A stretch of DNA of 64,000 nt, from NCBI RefSeq assembly GCF_014879935.1, contig NZ_JACSRD010000202.1, positions 4,572-68,571 on the forward strand. Direction: 5' to 3'. The notes beneath the pieces were generated by a model. The model was not told the origin of the DNA, did not search any database, and was given only the letters and a program-made list of their open reading frames with translations. The position numbers and the translations under genes were made by a program. Shown here piece by piece: positions 10,650 to 54,943 of the stretch (position 1 is its first letter; each line of letters begins with the position of its first letter). The stretch comes from Prosthecobacter sp. GTDB taxonomy: Bacteria; Verrucomicrobiota; Verrucomicrobiia; Verrucomicrobiales; Verrucomicrobiaceae.

Positions 10650-11714
10650 CTAGTTGAAGCGATGCCAGAGGGTCGTGTAGGACTGGATGCGCTGGCTGGT
10701 GACTGGAAGGTCGTCCCACAGCATCAGGCACAGCGCGTGCAGCAGCGACTCACGTGGATGCCGTTCGATCGGCTGCGGCACGCCAAGCGGCACATGGGGC
10801 ATGCGCAGGTGCTGAAGGATGTTCTTCCACAATGGCTGCTCCGGGCACTTGTTGTCGCCGTTGTGGGCGTATTCGCAGATGGAGGCGAAGGGGGTCCGCA
10901 GCCGACGTCCTTCGATTTCGAGGAAGAGGCTGTGCGCAAGCGCGGCAACCTCCGCATGCAGTGTTGCGAGGTCCTCCCGGTTCTGCGTGGAGCGCTGTGG
11001 ATGCAGTTTGAACTCCACGCCGATGGCGTGATGCCGGCGCAGGGCCGCATCCGCCTGGAGGCGCTGATGCCTCTCGCGACAGCTCCAGTGATAACGGCCT
11101 TCCGCCGCCAGCAGCGCATCTCCGAGCGCGAGCTGGGCCTTGGCGATGTTGCGGGCGACGAAGTCGGCGTCGTCGGGTGTGAAAACGCTGCGCTGGAGGC
11201 GCTCCCGGGCGAAAAGCAGACCGGAGCAGCGGTTGAAGAGCAGGCGCGTGGCCTCGCGCAGCGGAATGAGTGACGCGTCGCGATGATGCGCGGTTCCTTC
11301 GAGCAGCCGGTCATCGCCAATGAGCCAGCGATGGCCCATGACGAGATCGTAGTAGAACATGCTGGTCTGCGCGCGGCGCAGTTCGTCGGCGGAGATCACC
11401 TTGAACTCCACTTCCACGCCGGCGGAAGGCGTCAGACGTTCTCCGAGCGCGTGCAGCTTCTTCTTGAAACGACGCTCGTTCAGAAACGTGCTGCCGCGGA
11501 CAAAGACGAAGAACTCGATGTCGTTGTAGGGCTCGTCACTGCCCGCTGTGCGCAAAACGCCGCCTTCTCCGCGGCCGTAGCCACCGGCGAGGGCGAGGCC
11601 TTCGAGCTTCGCGGCGGGGATGAGCGCTTTCACGCCTTCCCGCACGTCGTCGCAGACTTTGGCAAGGTGCTGCTCCAGCGCGTCGCTGCCATCCAGGGTG
11701 AAACGAGTGCTCAT
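10650..11714 (-). CDS. Predicted nucleotidyltransferase (Pol-beta-fold, GlnD/GlnE-like GGYGRGE..DIE motif) with a helical C-terminal domain; function unknown
   Basis: LEGLALAGGYGRGEGGVLRTAGSDEPYNDIEFFVFV matches the G-[GS]..D-h-[DE]-h minimal NTase motif with a longer loop. The rest is predicted helical. It is translationally coupled (ATGA overlap at 11711-11714) to the upstream GT4. Confidence 0.6.
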   Translation of the reverse strand: MSTRFTLDGSDALEQHLAKVCDDVREGVKALIPAAKLEGLALAGGYGRGEGGVLRTAGSDEPYNDIEFFVFVRGSTFLNERRFKKKLHALGERLTPSAGVEVEFKVISADELRRAQTSMFYYDLVMGHRWLIGDDRLLEGTAHHRDASLIPLREATRLLFNRCSGLLFARERLQRSVFTPDDADFVARNIAKAQLALGDALLAAEGRYHWSCRERHQRLQADAALRRHHAIGVEFKLHPQRSTQNREDLATLHAEVAALAHSLFLEIEGRRLRTPFASICEYAHNGDNKCPEQPLWKNILQHLRMPHVPLGVPQPIERHPRESLLHALCLMLWDDLPVTSQRIQSYTTLWHRFN

Positions 11715-12925
11715 GCGGCCAGGAATTCCTCCACTTGGTCAACGATCGGCTCCATGGCGAAGCGGCGGCGGACCTCCTCGTGGCCGTTGATGGTGATGCG
11801 GTTGCGCAGCGCGGCATCTTTTTGCAGCAGGCGGATGCGCTCGGCCAGATGGCCCGCATCGCCCGCGTCGTAGGTGAGTGCGTTGTCGGCATGGCGGAAG
11901 AGCTCGCGGCTTCCGCCGGTCAGTGTGCCGATGACCGGAAGACCGCAGCTCATGGCCTCCAGCGGTGTGAGCGCGAAGGGTTCCTCCCACTCCGAGGTGA
12001 ACAGGAGGGCATCGTGGCTGCGATAGATCGCCGGCATCTGGTCCGGCGTGGCGCTGTGCCAGGAGACGGGCAGGTGATGCTCCTCGGCGAAGCGTTTCAA
12101 GCCGTCCACGTAGCTGGCGTCGCCCTTGCCATAGACACGCAGTTCGCCATGAAAATTCTCCTTCAGCAGCGCCAGCGCACGGAGGGCGGTGTGGATGCCT
12201 TTGTCCTCCGCCAAACGGCCGACCCAGAGCCAGCGCCGTGGATCGCGCAGGGCGGGGGAGCCGCTGAAGTGCTCCGTATCCACCGGGCAGTGGATCACAC
12301 CGCCATGACCGACATCGTAGCCCTGCTGCGCGGTGAGCTCGCGAAGCCGGGCGCTGGTGAAGTAGAGACGTGGAAAGCGGATGTCGCTGACCGGGTTCGT
12401 GGGGGCGAGCGGACTGAGACGTCGCTGGCGGCCCAGCAGGGTCCACACCAGGCGCTGCGCCTGGGCACCGAGCGAGCCTTCGCGGCGGTTCCACCAGTCG
12501 AGCCACACATCCGCCTTCAGGCTGCGGAGGATCCAGTGATCGCTCACATCATACACCACGCGCACGCCCAACTGCTGCAGCGTGAGGCAGAGCGACTTCG
12601 AAAGGCCGTTCATGCACCACACATGCACGACGTCCGGCCGGAAGTCCGCGATGTGCCTGCGCAGCGTGTCATTGTTGTGAATCTCCAGGTGCTGGAGCTC
12701 GCTGAGCGGCAGCCAGGGGTGCCCGTAGTAGCCATGGACGCGGAGCTGGCGGTGCACATGCGGCTGACCGGCCGGTGGCGGGGCGGAGTCGAGGCCGTGA
12801 TCGCTGGTCAGCACGCGGATTTCGTGACCCCGGGCCTGCAAGGCCTCGGTGATGGCGGCGCAGCGGAGTTCGTAACCGCCGACGTAGAAGGGCGGGTAGA
12901 GATTGGTGAGCGTGAGGATGCGCAT
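11711..12925 (-). CDS. Glycosyltransferase family 4
   Basis: Start re-set to MRILTLTNLYPPFYVGGYELRCAAITEAL (ATG 12925). WVGRLAEDKGIHTALRALA..FTSEWEEPFALTPLEAMSCGLPVIGT. Confidence 0.85.
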   Translation of the reverse strand: MRILTLTNLYPPFYVGGYELRCAAITEALQARGHEIRVLTSDHGLDSAPPPAGQPHVHRQLRVHGYYGHPWLPLSELQHLEIHNNDTLRRHIADFRPDVVHVWCMNGLSKSLCLTLQQLGVRVVYDVSDHWILRSLKADVWLDWWNRREGSLGAQAQRLVWTLLGRQRRLSPLAPTNPVSDIRFPRLYFTSARLRELTAQQGYDVGHGGVIHCPVDTEHFSGSPALRDPRRWLWVGRLAEDKGIHTALRALALLKENFHGELRVYGKGDASYVDGLKRFAEEHHLPVSWHSATPDQMPAIYRSHDALLFTSEWEEPFALTPLEAMSCGLPVIGTLTGGSRELFRHADNALTYDAGDAGHLAERIRLLQKDAALRNRITINGHEEVRRRFAMEPIVDQVEEFLAA

Positions 12926-19839: not shown

Positions 19840-21051
19840 TCAGGCCGCGAGGGCGAAGGTGGATGCGGTGGCGCTGGAGCGTGCGGCGATGGCGTCGAGC
19901 ATCAGGCGGTGGATGTGGGGAATGTGTGTGACGTCCTGCGGCACGTCCGGCGTGCTGCTGAAGAGCGTGGCGAAGCTCTGCGGATCATCGGGGTGATAGC
20001 CGTGCATGGCACGGATCGGCCGCTCACCCATGTGGGAGGGAACAATGAGGCAGCCTTCACGCACGAGGAAGATGAGCTCGCCAAAGCGGCCGTCCGCGAA
20101 ATGAGTGCGCAGTTGTTTCATCTCCGCTTCCGGCATGATGCGGCCTTGCGGCACCTTCTCGAGCGCTGCGATGATGCGACGGCGTGCGAGGTCGCTGTTG
20201 AACCAGAAACGGGCCATGGTGCTGTCATAGACGACGTTGTAGTCCCGGCCGATGCGCATCCCGAGCCCGTCGATGACACTCATGAGGTTGAGATGCTCGT
20301 CGCAATTGGCCATGCCGTGGTCGCTGAAGACATGCAGGGTCACGCTGCGGTAGTGCTGGTGCGCGGCTTGCAGCGTCTGTGTGATCCAGGCCTCATATTC
20401 GGCGAGCTTCGTGTCGATCTCCGGTGATTGGTTGCCGACGCGGTGCAGCAGCCCGTCGAGACCGGCCCAGTATTGAAACGCGAAGTCGATGCGCTCTGCG
20501 GTGATGTCCGCGTTCAAACGGTCGCGGTTGGCCTCCTCGGACTCGTCGGGGTTGGTGACGAAGTAGGGCACTTTCGCGGCTTCGAGCTGGTCGAAGATGT
20601 TTTCCCCGCGGTTCATGCCCCTGGGCTTCAGCGGGCTTTTTTTCTCCGTGAAGTCGTAGAGGTGGATGCGCTGGAAGGGGATGTTGTAGAGGTCGAAGTA
20701 GCCCTGGAAGCCCAGACGGCGTCTGGCGAGCTTGGTGAGCAGGCGGCGCACGATGCGGCGGCTGGTAAGCGCCTTGGGCAGGAAGCGCAACCAGCGGAGC
20801 GAGCTGAAGGGCGAGTTCTTCGGGTCGTGGATGAAGTAGCACCAGTTCTGATGCTCGTCGGGCCAGCGTCCGCTCAGGATGCTCGGAACGCAGGTGCTGC
20901 TGTAACCGAACACGCTGCCGAGTCTCCGGCGGTGAGGCGCTGCCTGTGCGAGGAAGTGCGGGCGGGTCTTGATGATCTCCCACCCGCAGGCGTCGATCAT
21001 GATGAAGAGGTCGAGGTGGTCTTTCATGCGGTGGGGGGACTGCTGGATCAC
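19840..21051 (-). CDS. Alkaline-phosphatase-superfamily enzyme (type I phosphodiesterase / nucleotide pyrophosphatase-like)
   Basis: Metal and nucleophile motifs: IMIDACGWE, GYSSTCVPSILSG, VFSDHGM, HGYHP. The track start is GTG 21051 (GTGA overlap with the upstream stop); ATG 21027 is an alternative. Confidence 0.7.
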   Translation of the reverse strand: MIQQSPHRMKDHLDLFIMIDACGWEIIKTRPHFLAQAAPHRRRLGSVFGYSSTCVPSILSGRWPDEHQNWCYFIHDPKNSPFSSLRWLRFLPKALTSRRIVRRLLTKLARRRLGFQGYFDLYNIPFQRIHLYDFTEKKSPLKPRGMNRGENIFDQLEAAKVPYFVTNPDESEEANRDRLNADITAERIDFAFQYWAGLDGLLHRVGNQSPEIDTKLAEYEAWITQTLQAAHQHYRSVTLHVFSDHGMANCDEHLNLMSVIDGLGMRIGRDYNVVYDSTMARFWFNSDLARRRIIAALEKVPQGRIMPEAEMKQLRTHFADGRFGELIFLVREGCLIVPSHMGERPIRAMHGYHPDDPQSFATLFSSTPDVPQDVTHIPHIHRLMLDAIAARSSATASTFALAA

Positions 21052-21434
21052 GCACTGAGGACCAGGCCGAGCAGGCGCTGGATGTCCTTGCGCAATTGCG
21101 AGGGGCTGAAGGGCTTGGTGATGAACAGGGAGGCATCTTCAAAGCCGTGATGCTGGCCGCGGGCGAGCTGGCCGCGGGCGCTGAAGATGACGACGGGTAT
21201 GTCCTGCGTGTCGGGGCTGGATTTGAGCTCACGGAGCGTCTCCTTCCCGTCCATGACAGGCATGATGTGGTCGAGCAGGATGATGCAGGGCCTCTCACGA
21301 CGGGCAATGTCGAGCGCCTCTCGCCCATCGGTGGCGGTGAGCACCCGAAGGCCGAGGGGCCGCATGCTGAGCTCCGCCACACGGCGGATGTGCGGCTCGT
21401 CATCGACGATGAGGATGGGGCTATCGGCTGGCAT
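21048..21434 (-). CDS. Stand-alone receiver (CheY-like) response regulator
   Basis: Start re-set to MPADSPILIVDDEPHIRRV (ATG 21434). IILLDHIMPVMDGKETLRELK..PVVIFSA..FITKPF. It overlaps the upstream gene by 14 nt. Confidence 0.85.
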   Translation of the reverse strand: MPADSPILIVDDEPHIRRVAELSMRPLGLRVLTATDGREALDIARRERPCIILLDHIMPVMDGKETLRELKSSPDTQDIPVVIFSARGQLARGQHHGFEDASLFITKPFSPSQLRKDIQRLLGLVLSA

Positions 21435-23184
21435 GACTGAGTGACTGCGGGCAGGGAACGGGAAGGGTGGCATGGGCGCGGGCGAGGATGATGAAGGTCG
21501 CATCGTCCCGCACACGGGCGGACTCATGATAGACGCGGTGCATCTGACGGAGGCTATCGCGGGCCGCCCAGGCATCCAGCCCCGCAACTGAGGTGCTTCT
21601 CAGCCAGTGATGCAGCATTTCCCGGGTGATCTGAACCTCGGAACTGGTGCTGTCACTGAGGCCGTCGGTGTGCATGAGGATGTGCGTGATGCCTTTGAGA
21701 TGGATCTCATGCTGCGGGAACACGTACTCCTCGCTGACGCCGAGCGGCGGGCCGTCGGAGCCGATCTCGGCCACTTCGACACCATCGGAGAGCAGCAGCG
21801 GGCCATGACCGGCGCCGCAGGTGCGCAGGGTGAGGCTGTCAGGGCTGAGGTAAGCAAGCTGCGCGGTGATGAACATGTCCGCACGGTCCAGTTCGGTGAA
21901 CAGGCTGCGGTTGAGCTGGTACATCAGCTTCGCCGGCTCGGCAGCGAGGCTCAGGTGGGCGTGGAGATTGCTGCGGAAGGCGGTGGCGAAGAGGGCGGCG
22001 GGCACGCCTTTGCCCATCACGTCCGCGATGACAAAAAGACGCCCGCCATCGGCAAGCGGGATGCCATCAAGGAAATCGCCACCGACCTCACCCACGGAGG
22101 TGAGATGCCCGGCGCTCTGCACCACAGCGCTTTGCGGCAGTTCCACCGGCAGCAGCGAGCGCTGGATGTCCGCGGCGATCTGCAGCTCCCGTTTGATGAG
22201 GCGGGAGTGATTCGCCTCATCGCGACGACGCAGGGTGTGCAGCAGGGTGCCGAGGAAGTCCCCCAGGCTGCGCACGACATTGATCTCGGCGGCCTTCGGC
22301 TCCCAGTGGGCCTTGTTCACGCCAAAGGTGATCACGCCGATCACCTCGCCACCGCTTTCCAGCGGGTGAGCGACGCCGCTGACGGTCTGATGAAGATGAG
22401 AGAGCGGATCGGCGCCGTCGAAGGCCGAACTGCCATCGAACCACTGATCCTGACGGGAGATGCAGGCACGCGATTCCACAAGATGGGTGCTGCTGACATC
22501 GAGAAAGGGCGTGACGAAGGATGTCGCCGGCGAGACGGCGATGCGCTCGAGCTGCGTGCCGTCCGGCGTCATCATCCGCAGGCTGAGAAAGTCCGCCGCG
22601 GCAAGCTGCCGCAGCTCTTCCAGCCAGTTGGCCGCCAGGGTGTCCGCAGGAATGTCACGCGCGGCATCCGCGCCGAGCCGGAAGATGTTTGCCAGCATTT
22701 CATAGCACGCGGAAAGTTCCGCGGTCATGACTTTGAGCGTCGCGGCGGCATCATCGTCCTTCCGTGGAGGCGTGCGGCGGTCGCGCTGGAGATGCAGCAC
22801 GTTTTCCTCGCGGCCGCGCAGGTAGCTGACGCGATCGGTGAGCGATTCGATGATGAATAGCCCGCGTCCGTGCTCGGATTCGTCATCTTCGGGCAGGCTG
22901 GCTTTCACCGGCCAGTCAAAGTCCGAGCTGTGGTCGGTCACCCGCACCTCGACGCCAGTGGTGGTCGTGGTGGCCTGGATGTTCAGCGGGCTTTCGCTTT
23001 CGCTGTGGACCACGGCGTTTCCTGCGGCCTCCGCCAGCACCAGTTCCCACTCGCGGCACTCCTCAGCGCCGAGGTTCTGGTGATCCAGCCAGGCGATGAC
23101 TTCGCGCACAGCCTCATGGGCTGATTGCAACGTGGCTTGGAAGTCGATGCGGACACCGGAGCAGGACTGGCGGACGAGATGCAT
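21421..23184 (-). CDS. Fused RsbW-like serine kinase (HATPase_c_2) - GAF-like - PP2C/SpoIIE phosphatase (SypE-like switch protein)
   Basis: N-terminus: LVLAEAAGNAVVHS..VRVTDHSSDFDW..EHGRGLFIIESL (anti-sigma-factor-kinase type). Middle: GAF-like, ..GVAHPLESGGEVIGVITFG... C-terminus: [46 protein letters not shown] (SpoIIE/PP2C). Confidence 0.8.
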   Translation of the reverse strand: MHLVRQSCSGVRIDFQATLQSAHEAVREVIAWLDHQNLGAEECREWELVLAEAAGNAVVHSESESPLNIQATTTTTGVEVRVTDHSSDFDWPVKASLPEDDESEHGRGLFIIESLTDRVSYLRGREENVLHLQRDRRTPPRKDDDAAATLKVMTAELSACYEMLANIFRLGADAARDIPADTLAANWLEELRQLAAADFLSLRMMTPDGTQLERIAVSPATSFVTPFLDVSSTHLVESRACISRQDQWFDGSSAFDGADPLSHLHQTVSGVAHPLESGGEVIGVITFGVNKAHWEPKAAEINVVRSLGDFLGTLLHTLRRRDEANHSRLIKRELQIAADIQRSLLPVELPQSAVVQSAGHLTSVGEVGGDFLDGIPLADGGRLFVIADVMGKGVPAALFATAFRSNLHAHLSLAAEPAKLMYQLNRSLFTELDRADMFITAQLAYLSPDSLTLRTCGAGHGPLLLSDGVEVAEIGSDGPPLGVSEEYVFPQHEIHLKGITHILMHTDGLSDSTSSEVQITREMLHHWLRSTSVAGLDAWAARDSLRQMHRVYHESARVRDDATFIILARAHATLPVPCPQSLSHASR

Positions 23185-23196
23185 GGGGGACGGGGA

Positions 23197-23481
23197 TCAG
23201 GCGTGGACGATTTCAAACACGCGATGCAGGCGTGTCAGCTCAATGAGCTGCGTGACGGCCGTGGAGGGATTCAGCAGCTTCAAGATGCCGCCCTGGGCGC
23301 GAAGCGTCTTGTGCAGGGAGAGCAAGGCGCCGAGGCCGGAGCTGTCGATGAAGCGCGTCTTGGACAGATCGACGGCCGTTTCCGTGGATTCGGGCGTGAT
23401 GTCGCGTGCGACGCGGTCTTTCCAGGCGCGGGCGGTGGAGGAGCAGAGTTCAGCGGGTGCGGTGATGACTGTTGGGTTCAT
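23197..23481 (-). CDS. STAS-domain anti-sigma-factor-antagonist-like protein (SpoIIAA/RsbV/SypA type)
   Basis: 94 aa. DLSKTRFIDSSGLGALLSLHKTL contains the conserved phosphorylatable-Ser motif DSSGLG. Confidence 0.85.
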   Translation of the reverse strand: MNPTVITAPAELCSSTARAWKDRVARDITPESTETAVDLSKTRFIDSSGLGALLSLHKTLRAQGGILKLLNPSTAVTQLIELTRLHRVFEIVHA

Positions 23482-23486
23482 GAGGA

Positions 23487-24791
23487 TCAGACTTGGCAGG
23501 TTTGGGGGATGTTTTTGTCGAGTTGGCCGGTGGCGGACTCGTGGGTGCCGTTCAGGGCCAGAAAGCGGGGCAGGCAGCGCAGGAGGATGCGCAGGTTCAT
23601 GCGGACGGAACGGTGCACGCTGTAACAGGCGGCGTGGGCAAGGGCGGCCTCCGGTCCTTCCAGGCCATCGTCCGTCGCATCGGCGAGCGAGAACACTCCC
23701 GCGGGCGAGGCTAGCCAGAGCTGCTCGAATTCATCTCCCAGCGCCGCGGCTTGGGGCGCGGTGAGCGGGCGGTTGCCGACGAGGTGCATGTCACCACGAA
23801 AGACGCGCCAAAGCTCCGGCCAGCGAGCGAAAAGACTGTCGATGCCGTTCAGCGCATGCAGAGGCGTGGTGCGCGTGTAGCGATCCTGACGGCCGGGTGG
23901 CGGCAGGATGATCTGGCGTCGCACCACGGTGGTCTCATGCCGCATGAGCCTCGTCCGCAGCATGGTGAAGGCGGCCAGGGGCAGCGTGAGCACCATCAGC
24001 AGCAAGGCGAAGAGCCGCGTCATCCACGCGGACGGCTTGCCGCCGTAGTGCTGGCGCTTCAGGCTGGCGAGGAGGAACTCATCCGTGATCTCGACAAACG
24101 AGGCGAGGCGCCAGTTTTCGAGGCCGTCTCCCCACGCGAAGGAGTGCGAGACCTCGGTCATGGCGCCGACATACGTGTTCGGGCCGATCCAACTGCCGCG
24201 CACAGTGGACTGATGGTCAATGAAGGCCGCGTTCTCGATGATGGAGCCGCCCATGATGTGGACGTTTTCTCCGATGATGACACGTGGGCCGATCCATGCG
24301 GGGCCTTCGATGACGGCCGTGGAAGCGATGCGCGCACGCGTGCTGACAAACACATCCGAGGCCAGACGGCGCATGGTGAGGCGTGATTCGGGCTCCACGT
24401 GCTTGAACTTGCGCCGCATCACGTCGTAAAGGCCTTCGGTGCTCTCCCAGAGCGGCAGCGTGGGGCCTTCCGGCAGTGTTTCGAGCGCGATGACCGACGT
24501 TTCGGCATCCGTGGCGAAGAGCGTGCGGGCGGCCTCGATGGTCGGCTCCCGGGGCACGGGAATGATCGTGATGCGCAGGCCCCAGCGACCGCCGTCACCC
24601 GTGGCGCGGCGGATTTCCTCAGGACGGTCCGCCACGAGCAGCGTGACCTCCTTGACGCCGTCGATGGCCAGTTTTTCAAGCCACAGGTCGAGCAGCTCAC
24701 GGCCCATGAAGGGCATGAGGGCCAGCGGTTTCATGCGGCGGGCGAAGCCGGCGCATTCGCGATGATCTGGAAGGATGACGACAGCTTTCAT
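23487..24791 (-). CDS. Fusion: nucleotidyltransferase-like + left-handed beta-helix domain + TM + degenerate bacterial sugar-transferase (PGT-like) domain
   Basis: N-terminus resembles sugar-1-P nucleotidyltransferases (MKAVVILPD..KPLALMPFMGRELLD..GVKEVTLLV) but has no clear GxGTRL loop. Hexapeptide-like turns: IEGPAWIGPRVIIGENVHIMGGSIIENAAFIDHQSTVRGSWIGPNTYVG. TM: LFALLLMVLTLPLAAFTML. PGT-like tail: WPELWRVFRGDMHLVGNRP..SPAGVFSLAD, lacking the KFRTM block and the Asp-Glu dyad. Confidence 0.7.
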   Translation of the reverse strand: MKAVVILPDHRECAGFARRMKPLALMPFMGRELLDLWLEKLAIDGVKEVTLLVADRPEEIRRATGDGGRWGLRITIIPVPREPTIEAARTLFATDAETSVIALETLPEGPTLPLWESTEGLYDVMRRKFKHVEPESRLTMRRLASDVFVSTRARIASTAVIEGPAWIGPRVIIGENVHIMGGSIIENAAFIDHQSTVRGSWIGPNTYVGAMTEVSHSFAWGDGLENWRLASFVEITDEFLLASLKRQHYGGKPSAWMTRLFALLLMVLTLPLAAFTMLRTRLMRHETTVVRRQIILPPPGRQDRYTRTTPLHALNGIDSLFARWPELWRVFRGDMHLVGNRPLTAPQAAALGDEFEQLWLASPAGVFSLADATDDGLEGPEAALAHAACYSVHRSVRMNLRILLRCLPRFLALNGTHESATGQLDKNIPQTCQV

Positions 24792-24794
24792 GGC

Positions 24795-25550
24795 TCACAT
24801 GCCTTTCCCCAGCACAATGGCGGGCACGGTTTTCAGAAGGATCCACAGGTCGCGGAGGAAGGACTGGCTCTCGATGTAGCGCACGTCGAGCCGCACCTGC
24901 TCGTCAAAGTCGATGGAGTTCCGGTCGCCGATCTCCCACAGGCCGCCTTCGCGTTCTCCCACCTGCCACAGGCAGGTGATGCCAGGCCGCGCATGCAGGC
25001 GGCGGCGGTCGCCGGGCGAATAGAGCGCCACCTCACGCGGCAGCGGCGGACGCGGGCCGACGATGGACATGTCACCGCGCAGCACGTTGATGAACTGCGG
25101 CAGCTCGTCGATGGACGTCTTGCGGATGAAGCGGCCGACGGGTGTCACACGTGGATCGTTCTTCATCTTGAAGGTCACACCCTGCGCCTTGTCGTTTTGG
25201 GCCAGGAGCTCGGCCAGCTTCGCCTCCGCATCCACACACATGGAGCGGAACTTCAGCATCTCGAAGTGGCGGCCGAGCATGCCCACGCGCTTCTGCTTGA
25301 AGAACACCGGGCCGCCATCACGGCGGATGAGCAGCGCCACGATGATGAACACTGGCGAGGCGAGCAGCAGGCACACGAGGCTGATGACGATGTCAAAGAG
25401 ACGCTTCACGGCGTGGGTGCCATTCACCACCGTGAGCCAGCTCCAGCGTTTCAAATGCATGCCCAGGCGCATGCGGAGACGGCCCATGCGGTTCTGCGCC
25501 TGCAGGAGACGTGCGGCTTGCTGTTCAGCGAGGTGCGATGTGTGAATCAT
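24795..25550 (-). CDS. Small phosphoglycosyl transferase (bacterial sugar transferase family, PglC/WecP-like initiating enzyme)
   Basis: RLFDIVISLVCLLLASPVFIIVALLIRRDGGPVFFKQKRVGMLGRHFEMLKFRSM..KTSIDELPQFINVLRGDMSIVGPRPP..RPGITCLWQV. All hallmark blocks are present. Confidence 0.9.
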   Translation of the reverse strand: MIHTSHLAEQQAARLLQAQNRMGRLRMRLGMHLKRWSWLTVVNGTHAVKRLFDIVISLVCLLLASPVFIIVALLIRRDGGPVFFKQKRVGMLGRHFEMLKFRSMCVDAEAKLAELLAQNDKAQGVTFKMKNDPRVTPVGRFIRKTSIDELPQFINVLRGDMSIVGPRPPLPREVALYSPGDRRRLHARPGITCLWQVGEREGGLWEIGDRNSIDFDEQVRLDVRYIESQSFLRDLWILLKTVPAIVLGKGM

Positions 25551-25620: not shown

Positions 25621-26868
25621 TCAGGCGGCGGCGAGCGCCGCGGGTGTCAGGACTTCCGAAACCGGGTGTGAAAGCCGTGGCGCGGCATGCTGCGCCACGT
25701 CGGTGAACATGGTTTCCAGATCGCGGATGTAGCCGTCGAAGTCGTAGCGCTCCGAAACGAGCTTCAGGCCGTTTTCACCCATCTCGCGGGCCTTGGCCTT
25801 GTTTTGCAGCAGCTCATCCAGACGCTGCGCAAACGCGCCGCGGTCCATCCACGGCACCAGATGGCCGTTGTGGCCGTCGATGAGCCAGTCTTTGATGCCA
25901 CCGGCGTCAAAAGCCACGACGGGCAAGGCATAGCGCATGACTTCGAGCCCGATGGTTGCGATAGGCTCCGGCCACACACTGCTCAATGCGACGACACTGC
26001 ATTCGCGGTAGTAGGCCTTCAGTTCCTCCTGCGGGATGAAGCCTTTGAAATGTACGCGGTCGCTCAGGCCCAGATCGCGGCTCAACTGCTCGCAGTGGGC
26101 CTTGTGATTGCCATCGCCGAGGATGATGCATTCAAAGTTGCTTTTCACCTTCGCCAGCGACTCCAGCAGCACGTCCACACCTTTGCCACGGATGATCTGG
26201 CCGGCGTAGAGGATCAGATTGCGGTCGCTGAAGCTGCTGCGGAGCGTGGGATCACCCATGCGCGGCACGGGTGCGTGGATCTCAATGCGGTTCGCGTCAA
26301 AGCCGTTCCGCAGCAGTTCATCACGCATGTAGGTGGTGACGACGACCATGCGGTCAAAGCGGCGGTTTAGCGCGATCTCGCGCTTCTTCTGGCGATAGCT
26401 CAACCATTTCAGCGGGAGGCTGCCGCCGCTGTTGTTTTTCACCACGCATGCGCCGCAGCCGAAGACGCAATAGAGCGAGGCGGCACGCGTGCAGATCTCA
26501 CGGGAGAAGTAGTGATACTTGTAGCTCCGCATGCAGTAGATGTCGTGGTCATGCACCATGCGCACGAGCGGCACATTGCTGTCCACCAGCGCCTGGATGA
26601 CATCGAGGTCGGCCATTTTGTGCACATAGACGACGTCCGGCCGGAAACGCAGCACGGCGTCCTTTGTCTGTGCCGCCGCCGTGCTGCCGGAGAGAGGAAA
26701 CGTGTGGGTGAAGACCTGCCTCCAGCCGTTCTCGTTCTTTCCGGTGCCAGGACCGTGAAGGATGGCGATGTCGTGGCCGCGTTTCGCGAGTTGTTCGGCG
26801 GTGATGAAGGCGTTGGCCTCGGCCCCGGCCAGGGCGCCGAAGCGTTCGTGAACGTAAAGGATCTTCAT
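25621..26868 (-). CDS. Glycosyltransferase family 4 with a Cys-rich insert
   Basis: Start re-set to MKILYVHERFGALAGAEANAFITAEQLAKRGH (ATG 26868). YAGQIIRGKGVDVLLESL..LSSVWPEPIATIGLEVMRYALPVVAFDAGGIKDWL. Confidence 0.85.
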   Translation of the reverse strand: MKILYVHERFGALAGAEANAFITAEQLAKRGHDIAILHGPGTGKNENGWRQVFTHTFPLSGSTAAAQTKDAVLRFRPDVVYVHKMADLDVIQALVDSNVPLVRMVHDHDIYCMRSYKYHYFSREICTRAASLYCVFGCGACVVKNNSGGSLPLKWLSYRQKKREIALNRRFDRMVVVTTYMRDELLRNGFDANRIEIHAPVPRMGDPTLRSSFSDRNLILYAGQIIRGKGVDVLLESLAKVKSNFECIILGDGNHKAHCEQLSRDLGLSDRVHFKGFIPQEELKAYYRECSVVALSSVWPEPIATIGLEVMRYALPVVAFDAGGIKDWLIDGHNGHLVPWMDRGAFAQRLDELLQNKAKAREMGENGLKLVSERYDFDGYIRDLETMFTDVAQHAAPRLSHPVSEVLTPAALAAA

Positions 26869-26933: not shown

Positions 26934-29897
26934 CTACTTCGACCAGGCGGTGAGCGCGGGCGCGGCGATCTTGAAGGCCTGCTTGATCTGCTCCACCAGC
27001 GCCGGCTGGTTTGTGCGCGCGCCTTGCTCGGCGAGTTGTTCCAGCTCGCGGCACAGCGCGTGCAGTTGATTGAGTCCGAAGAGGCTGCTGCTGCCCTTCA
27101 AGGCATGCGCCACGCGGCGGAGCGAGTTCTGATCGTCAGTCGCGGCGAGTTTTTCGAGCTCCTGGATGCGTTCCGGCGTGTCTTTGAGCCAGTTCTGGAC
27201 GAGCTCGGCCGTGTCTTCGCGGCTCAGCTCCTCGATGAGTTGTGAAATGGCCTCCTGCACGGCGGATTGGTCGTCCGGCGCTGAATCCGGCCCTGGTTCG
27301 ACGATTCTCGTGTTCTCCAGCACACGGACATGACTCAGTGCTTCGGTCAGAGCCTTCGCACGCAGCGGTTTTGAAACGTAGTCGTCCATTCCGGCCGCGA
27401 GACAGCGTTCACGCTCGCCCGCCATGACGTTCGCGGTCATGGCGATGATCCGGCACCGCGGGCGCTTCCACAGCGCGGTGGATTCGATCTCGCGGATGGT
27501 GCGCGTGGCCTCGTAGCCGTCCACGCGTGGCATGTGGCAGTCCATCAACACGGCGTCATAGACACCGCTGGCAAAGCGGTCCACCGCCTCCTCTCCATCG
27601 CGGGCGACTTCGGCGGGATAGCCGTGTTTTTCGAGCATCATCATGGCCATGCGGGCGTTCACCTCGTTGTCCTCGACCACGAGGAGTCGCGGCCGGCTGC
27701 CTGTGCCATGGGCAGGCACCGTGGCGGCGGTGTCCGCGGCCTGCGGCTCCGGCTCGGCATCGGGCATGCCTTGCGCGATCTTGAGCGGCAGATGGAACCA
27801 GAAGCGTGAGCCGGCGAAACGTTCGCTCTCCACGCCGATGCAGCCGCCCATGAGCTCCACAAGGCGTTTGCAGATGGCCAGGCCGAGTCCGGTGCCGCCG
27901 AAACGACGGGACGACGAGCTGTCCACCTGGGTGAAGGGCTGGAACAACTGGGCCTGCTGCTCCTCCGACATGCCGATGCCGGTGTCTGCGACACTGATCT
28001 CGAGCGTCACCGGCCCCTCGGCCGGCGAGGTGAGACGTTTGACGTCGATGCGGATGTTGCCCTCGTCGGTGAACTTGATGCCGTTGCCGACGAGGTTCAT
28101 GAGGATCTGCCGCAAACGGCCTGGATCGCCCACCAGCGTCGGCGGCACGTCAGACGCGATGTGCGTGATGAGTTCGATGTCGCGCGCGGCCGCCTTGTGG
28201 CGCAGCAGATCCACCACGCCGCGCACCACATCGTCCATGCGGAAGGGTTCCTCGACGATCTCGAGCTTGCGGGCCTCGATCTTGGAGAAATCGAGGATGT
28301 CGTCGATGATCGTCATCAGCGACTCGCCGCTCTGTCTCACGGCATCCACCATCTCCCGCTGCTTGGGCGCGAGGTCGGTGTCGAGAAGCAGGGAGGACAT
28401 GCCGATGATGCCGTTCATGGGAGTGCGGATCTCATGGCTCATGGTGGCCAGGAAGTCGCTCTTGGCGCGTGAGGCCGTCTCCGCGGCTTCCTTGGCCTGC
28501 AAAAGCTGATGTTCCGCCGCGCGGCGGACGATGTACTGGCCGATCTGGTTGCCGATGCCGGACAGCGACTCCAGCAGCGAGTCATCGGGGTCCAGGAAGT
28601 CCCGGCTGAAAAACTCGACCGACGCGATCGTGTCTCCGCCGGCCATGACCGGAAACGACAGCGCTCCATGCAGGCCGCAGGCAGCCACCACATCGGCGCG
28701 GGCGAAGGGCTCCGGCTGGGTGGCAAAGTCGCGATACCAATGGGCGCGGCCCGTCTTCCACACGAGGCCCGGCAGGTCCTCGCCGGATTCGAAGACCACT
28801 TCCCGGCTGCGGGTCGCGAACGCCTCCAAATCGACTGCCGGATCGTGCCACAGCTCGGCCAGGCGCATGTTTGTGAAGGTCGGGTCCACCATCCACATTG
28901 CTCCGGCGGTCCAGCCGAGCTTGGTGCAGATCATCTGGATCACCTTGGCCGCCGCCTGCCGCATCGTGTCCGCCTCCGCCAGGATGCGGCTGGCGGAGAA
29001 CTGCATGGCACGACGTTGTTCGTCGAGGCGGCGTTGCGTGATGTCGCTTTCGATCGCCATGAAGTTCACCACCTCGCCCTTGTCATCATGCATGGGCTGC
29101 ACTTCCACGGAGACCCAGTAGCGTTTTCCGGAGCGATGGTAGTTCAGGACCTCGGTGCGGAAGCTCTTCTTCTCCGCGATGCACCGGGCCATGTGGGCGA
29201 TGGTGGTGGGATCGGTTTCCGGTCCCTGGAGCAAGTCTCCCGGCTTTCGGCCTTCAGCCTCCGCTTGGGACCAGCCGGTGATGCGGGTGAAGCCTTCATT
29301 CACCCACTCGATGCGTCCTTGGGCGTCGGTCACGACCACTCCGTTGTCGGTGCGTGCGGCCACCAGCGCCAGTTTGCGCAGGCTTGCCTCCTGGGCTCGT
29401 AGCTGCGCCCGTTGTTCGGTGAGACGTTTGTTGAGCTTCTGCAGATCATCCGTGGCCATCCGCTGGGTCTGCAGCACCTGCAGCAGATCGATGGTCTGGT
29501 CGTGCACGGCGAAGTCGCTCATCGTCAGGCCGAAATCGTCCACCTGGTCCGGGTCGCTGAGCCACGGACTGCCGAGCAGCACGCCGTGAGGTGGGTCGTC
29601 GAGAATGATGGCCTGGCCGCGCAGCACCCGTTTCGAGTGCTGATCTTCCAGAAGGAACAGCCGGTCGGTATGACCCGCGGCCATGGCGTGGGTGAAAACA
29701 CCTTCCGGCTTTCTCGAGACGAACAGATCCGGAAGGCGTGCCCCAACCACAGCGTGCGGGCAGAATTTCAGCAATGACGGCCCGGTTTCGAGGATCACGT
29801 CGTTGTCATCCCACACGAAGTAGAAGGGAAACGCACGGAGGAACTCCCGTGTCGGGAGGCTGCTGATCACACTGGAGGTGTCCGGGCGGAGCTTCAT
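26934..29897 (-). CDS. Hybrid sensor histidine kinase: HNOBA - PAS - GAF - HisKA - HATPase_c - REC - HPt
   Basis: The N-terminus is collinear with the heme-NO-binding-associated region of soluble guanylate cyclases: [73 protein letters not shown] plus a coiled coil. PAS: [26 protein letters not shown] follows. HisKA: [19 protein letters not shown]. HATPase: [35 protein letters not shown]: [26 protein letters not shown]. HPt: [13 protein letters not shown]. Confidence 0.85.
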
Positions 29898-30451
29898 GCG
29901 GCGGCGGAGGTCCAGCGAACCTCGAAGACATCGTGATCAGCGCCTGCGGCCTTGGATTCGACCAGCGTCGCCGTGGCGGGCGTCTTGTAGAGCTTTCCAA
30001 GGCCCTGCACGAGGCCCACCACGAAGTCCGTCAGCCCGGAACGATGGGTAAGGTAGTGCAGGCGCAGCGAGTTGTCACCGATGTCCGAGCACTCGAAGCT
30101 CGGCGGGCGGAGGTTCGGGTAGATCATGGTCACCCGTGTGTGGAAGTTGGGCAGGTTGAGGAGGAACTCCTTCAGTGACTGCCCGCCGGAGCGCATCATC
30201 GCCCCGTAGCTCTTCGCGGCTGTCTCCAGCACCCAGTGCTCGCCGAAGGCGATGAGGATGTCGCGTGCCGGGGCGCCGAGGATGTCGGAGGCCGCGCTGA
30301 CCAGGTCGTAGGTGATGTCGTCGGGATAGGCCTCGTTGCTCACAAACACCTCCACATCCACGCCGGCTTTCGCCTTGATGGCTTCCCATTTGCGTTCTCC
30401 GAACTGGGTGACGACGAGATCTTCGATGGCTTTGTTGACGAGTCCGTACAT
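29894..30451 (-). CDS. hnoX: H-NOX (heme nitric oxide/oxygen binding) sensor protein
   Basis: Canonical N-terminus [13 protein letters not shown]. Proximal-His context [25 protein letters not shown]. Heme-propionate motif as Y-x-T-x-R ([18 protein letters not shown]). ATG 30451 is used; the track start is GTG 30466. ATGA-type 4-nt overlap with the downstream kinase. Confidence 0.9.
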
Positions 30452-30507
30452 GGCGATTGAGGACACTCATAAACGAAGGAGATCCCGCGTGCACGGCCTT
30501 CCAGCCG

Positions 30508-53536: not shown

Positions 53537-54943
53537 ATGCAAGACGCGCTAAGCCAACGAGTCCGCGGCTGGACCCCCTTCTTCGTCCTCACCGATGTCC
53601 TTTTCCTGTTCGCAGCCTTCATGGCGGCATCTCTGATGTCGTATCTGATTCCGCCGAATCTGGATCAATTCACCCTGGTGCCCGCCGCGAAGGAATGCGT
53701 GGTGCTGTGGGTCAGCATGGCGGCGGTGATCTTCCATGCGGCGGTCTGGCTGCGGGAAGGCTACTACATGCACAAGCTGCTGAACGGCGAGATTTACAAG
53801 ATCAGCCTGTCGCAGTCAGGTTTCACCGCGCTCCTGCTGCTTTTCTACGTGGCGTTGTGGCGCGATGTGGAGATCTCCCGCAAGCTGATCGTGTACCACC
53901 TGGCGTTCAGCGCTCCCTTCCTCTGCGCGGCCAAAATCGTGTTCATCAAGGTGCTGAAGGCCCTCGGCTCACGCATCCAGCCACGACTGCGTGTGGTGGC
54001 GGCATGCGAGCCGCCCTCGGTGGAGTCAATGCGCTCGTGGTTCGCGAACAAACGCATGCTCGGCATCAAACTGTGCGATGTGATCTGCCCGGAGCACAAG
54101 ATCGAGGACATCCGCAGCCTCGAACGCCGCCTGGAGGAGGCGATTGTGCGCGAGCGGCCGAATCTCGTGATCTGGCGCATGCCCACCAATGCACTGCGCA
54201 CAGAACGGGTGCGTGAAATGGCCGAGTCGCATGGGGCGCATCTGGCGGTGGACCTTCAGCCGATCCTTGGCGAGCTGACTCCCACCCACGTGTTTGAGTA
54301 TTCCACCATGAAGCTGGTGAGCCTGCACAAGCATCCGCTCGTCAATCCATCACATCGCTTCCTGAAGCGTGTGCTGGACGTCGCAGTGAGCCTTCCTGTG
54401 GTGTTGTTTGTCCTGCCGCTGCTGTGCGCGGGAGTGTGGATGCTTCATCGCTTGTTCTCCCCCGGCCCTCTGTTCTTCAAGCAGTCGCGCTCAGGTGCCG
54501 ACGGCCAGATGTTCCAGATCCTCAAGTTCCGCACGATGGCGGTCAATCACGGCTCCGAGAGCGTCCAGGCACGGCCGAACGACAAGCGTGTCTTCAAAGG
54601 CGGCGCCTTGCTGCGGAAGCTCAGCATCGACGAGATGCCACAGTTCCTGAACGTGTTCCTGGGGGACATGTCCGTGGTCGGGCCTCGTCCGCACATGGTC
54701 GAGCATGATGCGATTTTCGCGATGGAATGCAGCCAGTATCCGCTGCGCCACACGGTGAAGCCGGGTGTCACCGGCCTCGCCCAGGTGCGCGGTCATCGCG
54801 GGCCGATCGATGGAGCCGAGGAGATCAAACATCGCGTCACTTCCGACATCGAGTACTGCCAGAACTGGTCCTTCCTGCTCGATGTGGCGATCATCGCCCG
54901 CACCTTCCTGCACGTTTTCTCCTTTCATGCGAAGTCGTGCTGA
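53537..54943 (+). CDS. Large (WbaP-type) polyprenyl-phosphate phosphoglycosyl transferase
   Basis: N-terminal TM bundle, a central Rossmann-like region, and a complete C-terminal sugar-transferase domain: RVLDVAVSLPVVLFVLPLL..GPLFFKQSRSGADGQMFQILKFRTM..KLSIDEMPQFLNVFLGDMSVVGPRPH..KPGVTGLAQV. Confidence 0.9.
   Translation: MQDALSQRVRGWTPFFVLTDVLFLFAAFMAASLMSYLIPPNLDQFTLVPAAKECVVLWVSMAAVIFHAAVWLREGYYMHKLLNGEIYKISLSQSGFTALLLLFYVALWRDVEISRKLIVYHLAFSAPFLCAAKIVFIKVLKALGSRIQPRLRVVAACEPPSVESMRSWFANKRMLGIKLCDVICPEHKIEDIRSLERRLEEAIVRERPNLVIWRMPTNALRTERVREMAESHGAHLAVDLQPILGELTPTHVFEYSTMKLVSLHKHPLVNPSHRFLKRVLDVAVSLPVVLFVLPLLCAGVWMLHRLFSPGPLFFKQSRSGADGQMFQILKFRTMAVNHGSESVQARPNDKRVFKGGALLRKLSIDEMPQFLNVFLGDMSVVGPRPHMVEHDAIFAMECSQYPLRHTVKPGVTGLAQVRGHRGPIDGAEEIKHRVTSDIEYCQNWSFLLDVAIIARTFLHVFSFHAKSC

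What the first reader, a model, noticed from the sequence alone, without database searches (positions are those of the whole stretch)
23487..24791. Double pseudo-enzyme: nucleotidyltransferase-like + beta-helix + TM + catalytically degenerate PGT domain, paired with an intact PGT
The N-terminal third has the fold signature of sugar-1-phosphate nucleotidyltransferases but no recognisable GxGTRL pyrophosphorylase loop (ILPDHRECAGFARRMKPLALMPF). A hexapeptide beta-helix and one TM follow. The C-terminal part is clearly homologous to bacterial sugar transferases (WPELWRVFRGDMHLVGNRP; PAGVFSLAD versus PGITGLAQ). It lacks the GPVFF..KFRTM block and the Asp-Glu catalytic dyad: the intact neighbours have SIDELPQF and SIDEMPQF, whereas this one has GIDSLFARWPEL. 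The gene lies 3 nt downstream of an intact small PGT and 5 nt upstream of the STAS gene. A membrane-anchored, probably inactive paralogue placed there is a plausible regulatory subunit or docking site that couples the partner switch to the priming step. I am not aware of a characterised protein with this architecture.
Basis: partly seen in the sequence, partly recalled or inferred. Interest (0 to 1): 0.65.

Follow-up and report, generated by a model that had tools for sequence, protein, structure and literature searches.

The report
Dead-enzyme partner of a sugar-priming transferase
This gene encodes a conserved membrane-anchored protein built from inactive copies of two sugar-pathway enzymes; it always sits between the enzyme that starts polysaccharide assembly and a phospho-switch protein, and probably links the two.

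Summary
Window 23487-24791 (-) encodes a 434-aa protein with three parts: a truncated nucleotidyltransferase-like domain, a left-handed beta-helix, and a phosphoglycosyl-transferase (PGT) fold. The catalytic Asp-Glu dyad is replaced by x-Arg, and about 55 residues carrying the KFR and DPR motifs are deleted. None of 192 relatives has the dyad. The "TM" is more likely the PGT re-entrant helix, so the whole protein is probably cytoplasmic-face.

It is not a decaying gene: dN/dS is 0.05-0.19 in all three domains. The order small PGT, this protein, STAS is kept in 46/46 and 48/50 verrucomicrobial loci, and also in Desulfomonilaceae.

The main new evidence is gene fusion. At least five distinct clusters, including Rubritalea marina WP_018970511.1, fuse this protein to a STAS domain. 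One of them lacks the pseudo-PGT part.

Best reading (about 0.55): a non-catalytic accessory subunit of the adjacent small PGT. It receives the STAS partner-switch signal (kinase-GAF-PP2C, receiver, H-NOX/hybrid kinase) and gates the priming step of exopolysaccharide synthesis.

No binding or activity was tested. The family has no curated model and I found no literature on it. The closest precedent is the cyanobacterial STAS-PGT fusion All4160 (2026).

The parts
23487..24791 (-). Accessory protein (434 aa): pseudo-nucleotidyltransferase + beta-helix + re-entrant helix + pseudo-PGT
24375..24791 (-). aa 1-139: truncated NTP-transferase-like Rossmann domain. It lacks GxGTR and the PK lysine. Invariant residues: P8, D55-R56-P57, G71
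   Evidence: MurU 4y7t/4y7u: 30% identity over 82-109 columns, rmsd 1.9-2.5
24057..24374 (-). aa 140-245: left-handed beta-helix of the GMPPB_C/eIF2B type, with no conserved His
23940..24026 (-). aa 256-284: helix-break-helix around invariant Pro271, homologous to the monoPGT re-entrant membrane helix
23547..23939 (-). aa 285-415: pseudo-PGT core. It keeps RWPELW, GD..VGNRP and PAGVFSLAD. It lacks KFR, DPRxT and the dyad
23823..23828 (-). Codons for A322-R323, the position of the catalytic Asp-Glu dyad of active PGTs
   Evidence: 0 of 192 relatives have DE
24795..25550 (-). Intact small monoPGT (251 aa; Bac_transf 228 bits; SIDELPQF dyad; WbaP-like catalytic domain), 3 nt upstream of the accessory gene
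23197..23481 (-). Single-domain STAS protein (94 aa) with the phosphorylatable-serine motif DSSGLG
21421..23184 (-). RsbW-like Ser kinase (HATPase_c_2) + GAF + PP2C (SpoIIE) phosphatase in one 587-aa protein
21048..21434 (-). Single-domain response-regulator receiver (start inferred at Met52 of the ORF)
19840..21051 (-). Alkaline-phosphatase-superfamily (Phosphodiest) enzyme, with no N-terminal signal peptide evident by eye; co-conserved member of the cassette
25621..26868 (-). GT4 glycosyltransferase, conserved directly upstream of the PGT (start inferred at Met63 of the ORF)
26934..29897 (-). Hybrid histidine kinase: HNOBA-PAS-GAF-HisKA-HATPase-REC-Hpt
29894..30466 (-). H-NOX (haem-NO-binding) sensor protein

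Best explanation
The gene encodes a non-catalytic accessory subunit of the small phosphoglycosyl transferase encoded 3 nt upstream. A re-entrant helix and a gutted PGT fold hold it on the cytoplasmic face of the membrane, next to the active PGT. A soluble module, made of a truncated nucleotidyltransferase-like domain and a beta-helix, serves as the regulatory and docking part.

The STAS protein encoded 5 nt downstream binds this accessory protein. The adjacent kinase-GAF-PP2C protein sets the serine-phosphorylation state of STAS, and that protein is itself under receiver, hybrid-kinase and H-NOX control. The phosphorylation state then decides whether the PGT primes undecaprenyl phosphate for the Wzx/Wzy exopolysaccharide encoded around it. 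By analogy with Anabaena All4160 and Vibrio SypA, unphosphorylated STAS would be the 'on' state.

Shown here: the domain homologies, the loss of catalytic motifs across the family, purifying selection, conserved gene order, and gene fusions with STAS. Inferred: physical binding to the PGT and to STAS, the effect on PGT activity, and its sign.
For: 1. Catalytic death as a PGT and as a nucleotidyltransferase. The dyad position is x-R323 in the 99-sequence alignment of full-length homologues, and no DE occurs in 192 relatives. The KFR and DPR segment is deleted, and GxGTR and the PK lysine are absent.

2. The protein is still functional. dN/dS is 0.05-0.19 in each domain against close relatives, compared with 0.086 for the PGT. 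There are 25 invariant columns across 99 homologues.

3. Obligate neighbour of a small PGT. The PGT is present in 46 of 46 loci that have upstream DNA, with gaps of 0-10 nt or overlaps. The same holds in L051-L054, L057-L063 and Desulfomonilaceae. Even the 290-aa N-half-only relatives sit directly after a small PGT.

4. Link to STAS. STAS lies directly downstream in 48 of 50 loci. Five distinct 50%-identity clusters fuse the accessory protein to a C-terminal STAS: P0260, P0263, P0280 (Rubritalea marina WP_018970511.1), P0307 and P0309. Several were seen on multiple contigs. P0307 is N-half plus STAS without the pseudo-PGT part.

5. A working phospho-switch. DSSGLG is present in 47 of 47 stand-alone STAS proteins. 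Ser is replaced by Ala in two of the loci that lack the kinase/phosphatase (L042, P0263).

6. Tempo of evolution. The protein evolves at the rate of the regulatory proteins, not of the enzymes (exploratory).

7. Precedents. All4160 is a STAS+Bac_transf fusion regulated by phosphorylation (PMC13555669). The receiver protein EpsW activates the PGT EpsZ by binding (PMC12802240). The WbaP DUF senses nucleotides (PMC10942596). GMPPA, KJC2 and eIF2B are dead NTase-beta-helix regulators and appear as fold matches.
Against: - No protein-protein interaction or enzymatic effect was tested. A complex prediction could not be run.
- Two loci keep the accessory protein without STAS (L038, L005), and the N-half-only relatives have no STAS nearby. 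The link with the PGT is therefore older and more general than the link with STAS.
- Conserved polar residues (D55, R56, E186, D237, R323, N340, D371, H386) leave room for ligand binding or an unrecognised activity.
- Rate covariation does not separate the candidate partners.
- One long-form relative (P0358, locus L056) follows a WecG gene rather than an intact PGT.
Confidence: 0.55

Rival explanations
1. A structural scaffold or assembly factor of the priming complex, with no regulatory role. It recruits or orients the PGT, the GT4 and the Phosphodiest enzyme at the membrane. STAS acts on something else, such as the PGT itself.
For: The core GT4, PGT, accessory, Phosphodiest order persists where STAS or the kinase/phosphatase is missing (L038, L054, L053, L057-L060). 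Beta-helix domains commonly drive oligomerisation; this is established knowledge for GMPPB and eIF2B, which are fold matches.
Against: Five independent fusions to STAS indicate a direct functional link between the accessory protein and STAS, rather than between STAS and another target. The protein evolves at the tempo of the regulatory genes.
Confidence: 0.2
2. A ligand sensor. The degenerate nucleotidyltransferase-like domain, or the pseudo-PGT pocket, still binds a nucleotide, an NDP-sugar, UMP or undecaprenyl phosphate. It then feeds substrate or product levels back to the PGT, acting in trans like the nucleotide-sensing DUF of large PGTs or like GMPPA.
For: Fold matches to GMPPA, KJC2 and eIF2B. 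The WbaP DUF precedent (PMC10942596). Conserved charged residues in all domains. Retained VGNRP and PAGVFSLAD motifs. A UDP-glucose pyrophosphorylase gene lies next to the triad in L061.
Against: The phosphate-binding loop and lysine are gone, and the sugar-binding lobe of the NTase domain is missing: the domain is 135 aa against about 230. This reading is compatible with the best explanation rather than exclusive of it.
Confidence: 0.15
3. An active enzyme with a diverged active site, for example a PGT using other residues, a bifunctional enzyme like Neisseria PglB, or a transferase of a new specificity.
For: Strong purifying selection and invariant polar residues. Databases name it 'sugar transferase' or 'NDP-sugar pyrophosphorylase family'.
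Against: All known catalytic motifs of both parent families are missing across the family: the dyad, KFR, DPR, GxGTR and the PK lysine. There is no conserved His in the beta-helix. An intact PGT is always encoded next to it.
Confidence: 0.07
4. Adjacency to STAS is incidental. The partner switch controls a sigma factor and transcription of the cluster, as in classical RsbV/RsbW systems.
For: RsbW-like kinase, PP2C and STAS are the classical parts of such a system.
Against: No sigma factor was found among the long ORFs annotated from 15.2 to 37.7 kb or in the conserved cassette. Fusions of STAS to the accessory protein and to the WecG glycosyltransferase in Rubritalea. STAS-REC fusions where the kinase is absent.
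Confidence: 0.03

Closest known systems
Anabaena All4160 / Synechocystis XssP (STAS + Bac_transf fusion PGTs; PMC13555669)
   Same: A STAS domain with a phosphorylatable serine, controlled by an RsbW-like kinase and a SpoIIE-type phosphatase, is functionally tied to a monoPGT-fold protein that starts a polysaccharide pathway. The link is shown by gene fusion.
   Different: In All4160 the STAS is fused to the PGT (Bac_transf) domain of the protein that is genetically required. Here STAS is separate, or fused to a dead PGT paralogue that also carries a pseudo-nucleotidyltransferase and a beta-helix, and the active PGT is a third protein. The authors report STAS-PGT fusions as rare outside cyanobacteria.
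Vibrio fischeri SypA/SypE (STAS and kinase-REC-PP2C in the syp polysaccharide locus; PMC4517449, PMC11112999)
   Same: A partner-switch module embedded in a Wzx/Wzy polysaccharide locus, with non-sigma output, and nitric-oxide/H-NOX input in the same organism.
   Different: The target of SypA is still unknown, and to my recollection no pseudo-PGT is described in syp. Here GAF replaces REC inside the kinase/phosphatase protein, and REC is a separate gene.
Myxococcus xanthus EpsW-EpsZ (PMC12802240)
   Same: Post-translational control of the priming PGT by binding of a small signalling protein encoded in the EPS locus.
   Different: The regulator is a phosphorylated receiver domain that acts directly on a large PGT, with no pseudo-enzyme adaptor.
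Large monoPGT WbaP with its nucleotide-sensing DUF (PMC10942596)
   Same: A PGT catalytic domain combined with a Rossmann-like, nucleotide-related regulatory and oligomerisation domain.
   Different: In WbaP all parts are in one chain with four TM helices, and the DUF is PF13727. Here the extra domains lie on a separate, catalytically dead paralogue and are NTP-transferase/beta-helix-like.
GMPPA, KONJAC (KJC2) and eIF2B gamma/epsilon (inactive NTase + beta-helix regulatory subunits)
   Same: The same two-domain fold (foldseek), with loss of catalysis and a regulatory or scaffolding role towards a partner.
   Different: Those are soluble eukaryotic proteins that pair with an active NTase paralogue or with eIF2. 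The present N domain is only about 135 aa, is fused to a membrane-anchored pseudo-PGT, and pairs with a PGT.
Neisseria PglB-type bifunctional PGT-acetyltransferase (recalled, not tested here)
   Same: A PGT fold and a hexapeptide beta-helix in one chain.
   Different: The domain order is opposite, both domains are active, and there is no NTase-like domain.

Membership tests
Monotopic phosphoglycosyl transferase (PF02397 Bac_transf) | Overall fold and sequence homology of the catalytic domain | tested here: met
   Pfam 35 bits for HMM 91-176. hhalign 92% over aa 256-409. Foldseek PglC 8e37 E 1.5e-6, TM 0.62.
Monotopic phosphoglycosyl transferase (PF02397 Bac_transf) | Re-entrant helix-break-helix with a conserved Pro | tested here: met
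   AF2 helices 256-268 and 270-284; Pro271 invariant. Membrane topology itself was not tested.
Monotopic phosphoglycosyl transferase (PF02397 Bac_transf) | Catalytic Asp-Glu dyad (DE-[LM]-PQ) | tested here: not met
   x-R323 at that position; 0 of 192 relatives have DE.
Monotopic phosphoglycosyl transferase (PF02397 Bac_transf) | GPVFF...KFR[ST]M hairpin motif and DPRxT segment | tested here: not met
   The hairpin is predicted but the motif residues are absent. About 55 residues are deleted relative to the neighbouring PGT.
Sugar-1-phosphate nucleotidyltransferase (PF00483) | GxGTR(L) phosphate loop and downstream P-K lysine | tested here: not met
   These align to P8-D-x-R-x-x-A and P22-L23.
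Sugar-1-phosphate nucleotidyltransferase (PF00483) | Full-size domain of about 230 aa with a sugar-binding lobe | tested here: not met
   Only about 135 aa precede the beta-helix. Matches cover the first 80-110 residues of MurU and RmlA-type enzymes.
Hexapeptide (LbH) acyl/acetyltransferase | Hexapeptide-repeat beta-helix | tested here: met
   Hexapep E 1.1e-8; short strands through 140-243.
Hexapeptide (LbH) acyl/acetyltransferase | Conserved catalytic His/base in the helix | tested here: not met
   No invariant or near-invariant His in aa 140-245 of 99 homologues. The best models are the non-catalytic GMPPB_C and LbH_EIF2B.
Partner-switching system (STAS / RsbW-like kinase / PP2C) | STAS with a phosphorylatable Ser, a GHKL Ser-kinase domain and a SpoIIE/PP2C domain | tested here: met
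   (DSSGLG in 47 of 47). Phosphorylation itself is not testable here.
Partner-switching system (STAS / RsbW-like kinase / PP2C) | Sigma factor as output | tested here: not met
   No sigma factor among the long ORFs annotated from 15.2 to 37.7 kb or in the conserved cassette.
STAS-PGT fusion enzymes (All4160/XssP type) | STAS and Bac_transf in one chain | tested here: not met
   In the window they are separate genes. Relatives P0260, P0263, P0280 and P0309 carry STAS fused to the accessory protein (Bac_transf itself is detected by Pfam only in P0260), in every case with a dead PGT fold and extra domains.
Inactive NTase-LbH regulatory subunits (GMPPA/KJC/eIF2B gamma-epsilon) | NTase-like + LbH fold, loss of catalytic residues, binds and regulates a partner | tested here: inconclusive
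   Fold and loss of residues are met. Partner binding is only inferred from synteny and fusions. There is no evidence of common descent with those eukaryotic proteins beyond the superfamily.

The most novel reading that the evidence does not exclude
This is the first recognised pseudo-PGT family. It is a widespread adaptor: 845 clusters at 50% identity score E<=1e-30 against the whole-protein profile, and at least two phyla carry it. The adaptor forms a heteromeric complex with small monoPGTs. It supplies in trans the regulatory domain that large PGTs carry in cis, and it is the long-sought kind of direct target through which polysaccharide-locus STAS proteins (SypA-like) control glycan priming after translation. 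In this organism that would connect nitric-oxide/H-NOX sensing to undecaprenyl-phosphate commitment.
Probability: 0.3. Interest if true: 0.8.

Novelty: new variant of a known kind. Interest (0 to 1): 0.68.

Why it matters
Priming by a PGT commits scarce undecaprenyl phosphate and nucleotide sugars. How that step is controlled after translation is only starting to be understood (EpsW-EpsZ in 2025, All4160 in 2026).

The targets of single-domain STAS proteins in polysaccharide loci such as SypA are still unknown. This family offers a concrete, testable candidate target, supported by repeated natural fusions. It also adds a pseudo-enzyme class to the monoPGT superfamily, which current annotation pipelines label simply as 'sugar transferase'.

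Cultured hosts exist for experiments: Prosthecobacter fluviatilis KACC 12649 and Rubritalea marina.

Tried and rejected
1. Single-chain AF2 complex. The PGT and accessory genes are in frame, so I tried to model them as one chain.

2. AF2 of the natural Rubritalea accessory-STAS fusion (pLDDT 89.5, pTM 0.68). The tool gives no contacts and only four rows of the alignment cover STAS, so it says nothing about the interface.

3. Evolutionary-rate covariation. The accessory protein tracks STAS and the kinase/phosphatase rather than the enzymes. However, all fast-evolving proteins correlate, so this does not discriminate partners or domains. I treat it as exploratory.

4. Genome scan with the 26-sequence long-form alignment. 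It was too divergent. A 6-sequence subset worked.

5. Literature searches for pseudo-PGTs or PGT-STAS links. Nothing turned up beyond the Anabaena work.

6. Programmed read-through joining the PGT and the accessory protein. I considered and rejected this because the spacing and frame vary between loci.

7. A decaying pseudogene. Rejected on dN/dS and family-wide invariant residues.
Full report
**What is there**

The ORF at 23487-24791 on the minus strand is real (434 aa). It lies 3 nt after the stop codon of a 251-aa intact small PGT (24795-25550). It ends 5 nt before a 94-aa STAS gene (23197-23481).

The surrounding region of roughly 30 kb, on the same strand, is a Wzx/Wzy-type polysaccharide cluster. 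It contains many GT4 and GT2 glycosyltransferases, a flippase, a Wzy-like polymerase, acetyltransferases, a methyltransferase and an alkaline-phosphatase-superfamily enzyme. Signalling genes are embedded in it: H-NOX, an HNOBA-PAS-GAF hybrid histidine kinase with Hpt, a single receiver domain, and a 587-aa protein that joins an RsbW-like kinase, GAF and PP2C. The closest relatives are Verrucomicrobiaceae and Prosthecobacter.

**Anatomy of the protein**

Sequence, profile and fold evidence agree on three modules.

- *aa 1-139, the N-terminal part of a sugar-1-phosphate nucleotidyltransferase.*
  - NCBIfam gives a weak rmlA_long match.
  - The family profile matches MurU 4y7t at E 3.7e-8 and eIF2B-epsilon at 4.5e-8.
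  - Foldseek aligns MurU at 30% identity with rmsd 1.9-2.5.
  - The GxGTR loop and the P-K lysine are replaced: P8-D-x-R... and P22-L23 across the family.
  - The domain is only about 135 residues long, so the sugar-binding lobe is missing.

- *aa 140-245, a hexapeptide beta-helix.*
  - It is of the non-catalytic GMPPB_C/eIF2B type.
  - It has no conserved histidine.

- *aa 256-415, a complete but gutted monoPGT fold.*
  - hhalign to the neighbouring PGT gives 92% probability over aa 256-409 against 51-244.
  - Foldseek finds PglC with TM 0.62.
  - The hydrophobic segment 256-284 is predicted as helix-break-helix around the invariant Pro271. That is the PGT re-entrant helix rather than a membrane-spanning one, so the whole protein should lie on the cytoplasmic face (topology inferred).
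  - The hairpin that normally carries GPVFF and KFRTM is predicted, but its motif residues are gone.
  - About 55 residues that include the DPRxT segment are deleted.
  - The Asp-Glu dyad aligns to x-Arg323.
  - In 192 family and superfamily sequences that contain this region, none has DE. Most have (R/S/A/K)-R.

- The whole-protein AF2 model has mean pLDDT 84.6.

**It is a functional, conserved family**

The word-indexed search found about 104 full-length homologues at 36-91% identity. Their only names are "sugar transferase" or "hypothetical". Twenty-five columns are invariant across 99 sequences, spread over all three modules.

Against the closest relatives, dN/dS is 0.05-0.19 for each module. 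This is about twice the value for the PGT (0.086). The last 19 residues evolve neutrally.

An exhaustive profile search of 1.84 billion representatives gave 845 clusters with E<=1e-30. The listed hits fall into five forms:
- the full-length form;
- a roughly 290-aa form with only the N domain and the beta-helix;
- a form of about 490 aa with a fuller NTP-transferase domain, also lacking the dyad;
- forms fused to STAS, either full-length or N-half only.

**Genomic context**

In 50 genome loci the order GT4, PGT, accessory, STAS, kinase-GAF-PP2C, REC, Phosphodiest is kept while accessory identity falls to 32%. The contigs are all verrucomicrobial by similarity; a few MAG labels look wrong.
- The small PGT lies directly upstream in 46 of 46 loci that have upstream DNA.
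- STAS lies directly downstream in 48 of 50 loci. The exceptions are L038 and the probably chimeric L005.

A 7.9-Mb genome has PGT, accessory, STAS, STAS, kinase/phosphatase, REC without the GT4 or Phosphodiest genes. The N-half-only protein P0293 also follows a small PGT.

The long form in Desulfomonilaceae, a different phylum, again has PGT (50% identical to the window's), then accessory, then STAS. One long-form member follows a WecG gene instead.

**Fusions**

Five distinct clusters fuse the accessory protein to a C-terminal STAS domain.
- P0280 is WP_018970511.1 of the cultured Rubritalea marina. Its locus reads PGT, fusion, kinase/PP2C, REC, Phosphodiest, GT4.
- P0263.
- P0260.
- P0309, seen on five contigs.
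- P0307, seen on three contigs, is the N domain and beta-helix plus STAS with no pseudo-PGT part.

This is Rosetta-stone evidence that STAS works with this protein, and probably with its soluble half.

The STAS motif DSSGLG is present in 47 of 47 stand-alone copies. It reads DASG in two of the loci that lack the kinase/phosphatase (L042, P0263). In L023, L024 and L042 STAS is instead fused to a receiver domain. These patterns fit a model in which STAS is the output adaptor, with an input that can be swapped.

**Mechanism proposed**

The accessory protein sits beside the small PGT on the inner face of the membrane. Its tight spacing to the PGT gene fits co-translated subunits. The PGT has a conserved N-terminal extension of about 45 aa that could be a docking element (speculative).

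STAS docks on the accessory protein depending on its serine phosphorylation. The kinase-GAF-PP2C protein sets that phosphorylation, under receiver, hybrid-kinase and H-NOX control. The result gates priming.

The sign of the effect, with unphosphorylated STAS as "on", is taken by analogy from All4160 (PMC13555669) and SypA (PMC4517449).

The rivals are a pure scaffold, a ligand sensor, a cryptic enzyme, and incidental adjacency with a sigma-factor output. They are listed with their evidence in the rival-explanations section. The sensor idea is compatible with the main model.

**Comparison with what is known**

- The nearest precedent is the cyanobacterial STAS-Bac_transf fusion All4160/XssP. 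There, phosphorylation of the STAS domain controls a polysaccharide pathway (bioRxiv 10.64898/2026.04.08.717354; PMC13555669).
- Related principles are EpsW activating the PGT EpsZ (PMC12802240) and the nucleotide-sensing DUF of WbaP (PMC10942596).
- The N half resembles the dead nucleotidyltransferase regulators GMPPA, KJC2 and eIF2B gamma/epsilon.
- The target of SypA remains unknown (PMC11112999).
- I found no paper describing an inactive PGT paralogue, and no curated Pfam or NCBIfam model for this family.

**Verdict**

This is a previously undescribed accessory family within a kind of regulation that has only recently been recognised. I rate it a new variant of a known kind, with interest 0.68.

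Noticed in passing
window 26934-30466 (-): An H-NOX gene and an HNOBA-PAS-GAF-HisKA-HATPase-REC-Hpt hybrid kinase lie directly upstream of the GT4/PGT cassette. The same pair is present in some relatives only (L001-L008, L030, L040, L047). This parallels NO/H-NOX control of Syp biofilm in Vibrio fischeri.
   Followed up: partly
L023:2726-3424, L024:3602-4333, L042 (about 11280-11961): In loci that lack the kinase-GAF-PP2C gene, STAS and the receiver domain are in one ORF (a STAS-REC fusion). In L042 the phospho-serine motif reads DASG.
   Followed up: partly
L052:3017-4105 (Rubritalea marina KB899258.1): A WecG/TagA-family glycosyltransferase fused to a STAS domain is encoded divergently next to the PGT/accessory-STAS operon. 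It is a second STAS-enzyme fusion in the same locus.
   Followed up: no
window 19840-21051 (-): An alkaline-phosphatase-superfamily (PF01663 Phosphodiest) protein with no N-terminal signal peptide evident by eye is co-conserved with the PGT/accessory pair in nearly all loci, even where STAS and the kinase are absent. Its role in the cassette is unknown.
   Followed up: partly
window 24795-25550 (-), aa 1-48 of the PGT: The partner small PGT carries an N-terminal extension of about 45 aa before the re-entrant helix. It has conserved residues (AQS..GR.R....KR..W) that are not part of the Bac_transf domain.
   Followed up: partly
window 23487-23546 (-), aa 416-434: The C-terminal 19 residues of the accessory protein have low pLDDT and evolve neutrally (dN/dS about 1 or higher).
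   Followed up: yes
window 53537-54943 (+): A second, large (468 aa) intact PGT with SIDEMPQF lies about 30 kb away on the other strand. It probably primes a different glycan.
   Followed up: partly
L061:7627-9015: In a Desulfomonilaceae genome a eukaryote-type UDP-glucose pyrophosphorylase (PF01704) follows the PGT, accessory, STAS triad. This hints at a UDP-hexose donor.
   Followed up: no
L005 (CALLYM010000173.1) and L026, L001, L032: L005 loses similarity after accessory residue about 406 and has none of the downstream cassette, so it is probably a chimeric contig. L026, L001 and L032 carry organism labels (Gammaproteobacteria, Akkermansia muciniphila) that do not fit their verrucomicrobial content.
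   Followed up: no
L025, L027-L030, L035, L046, L051: Two tandem STAS genes follow the accessory gene in several lineages.
   Followed up: no
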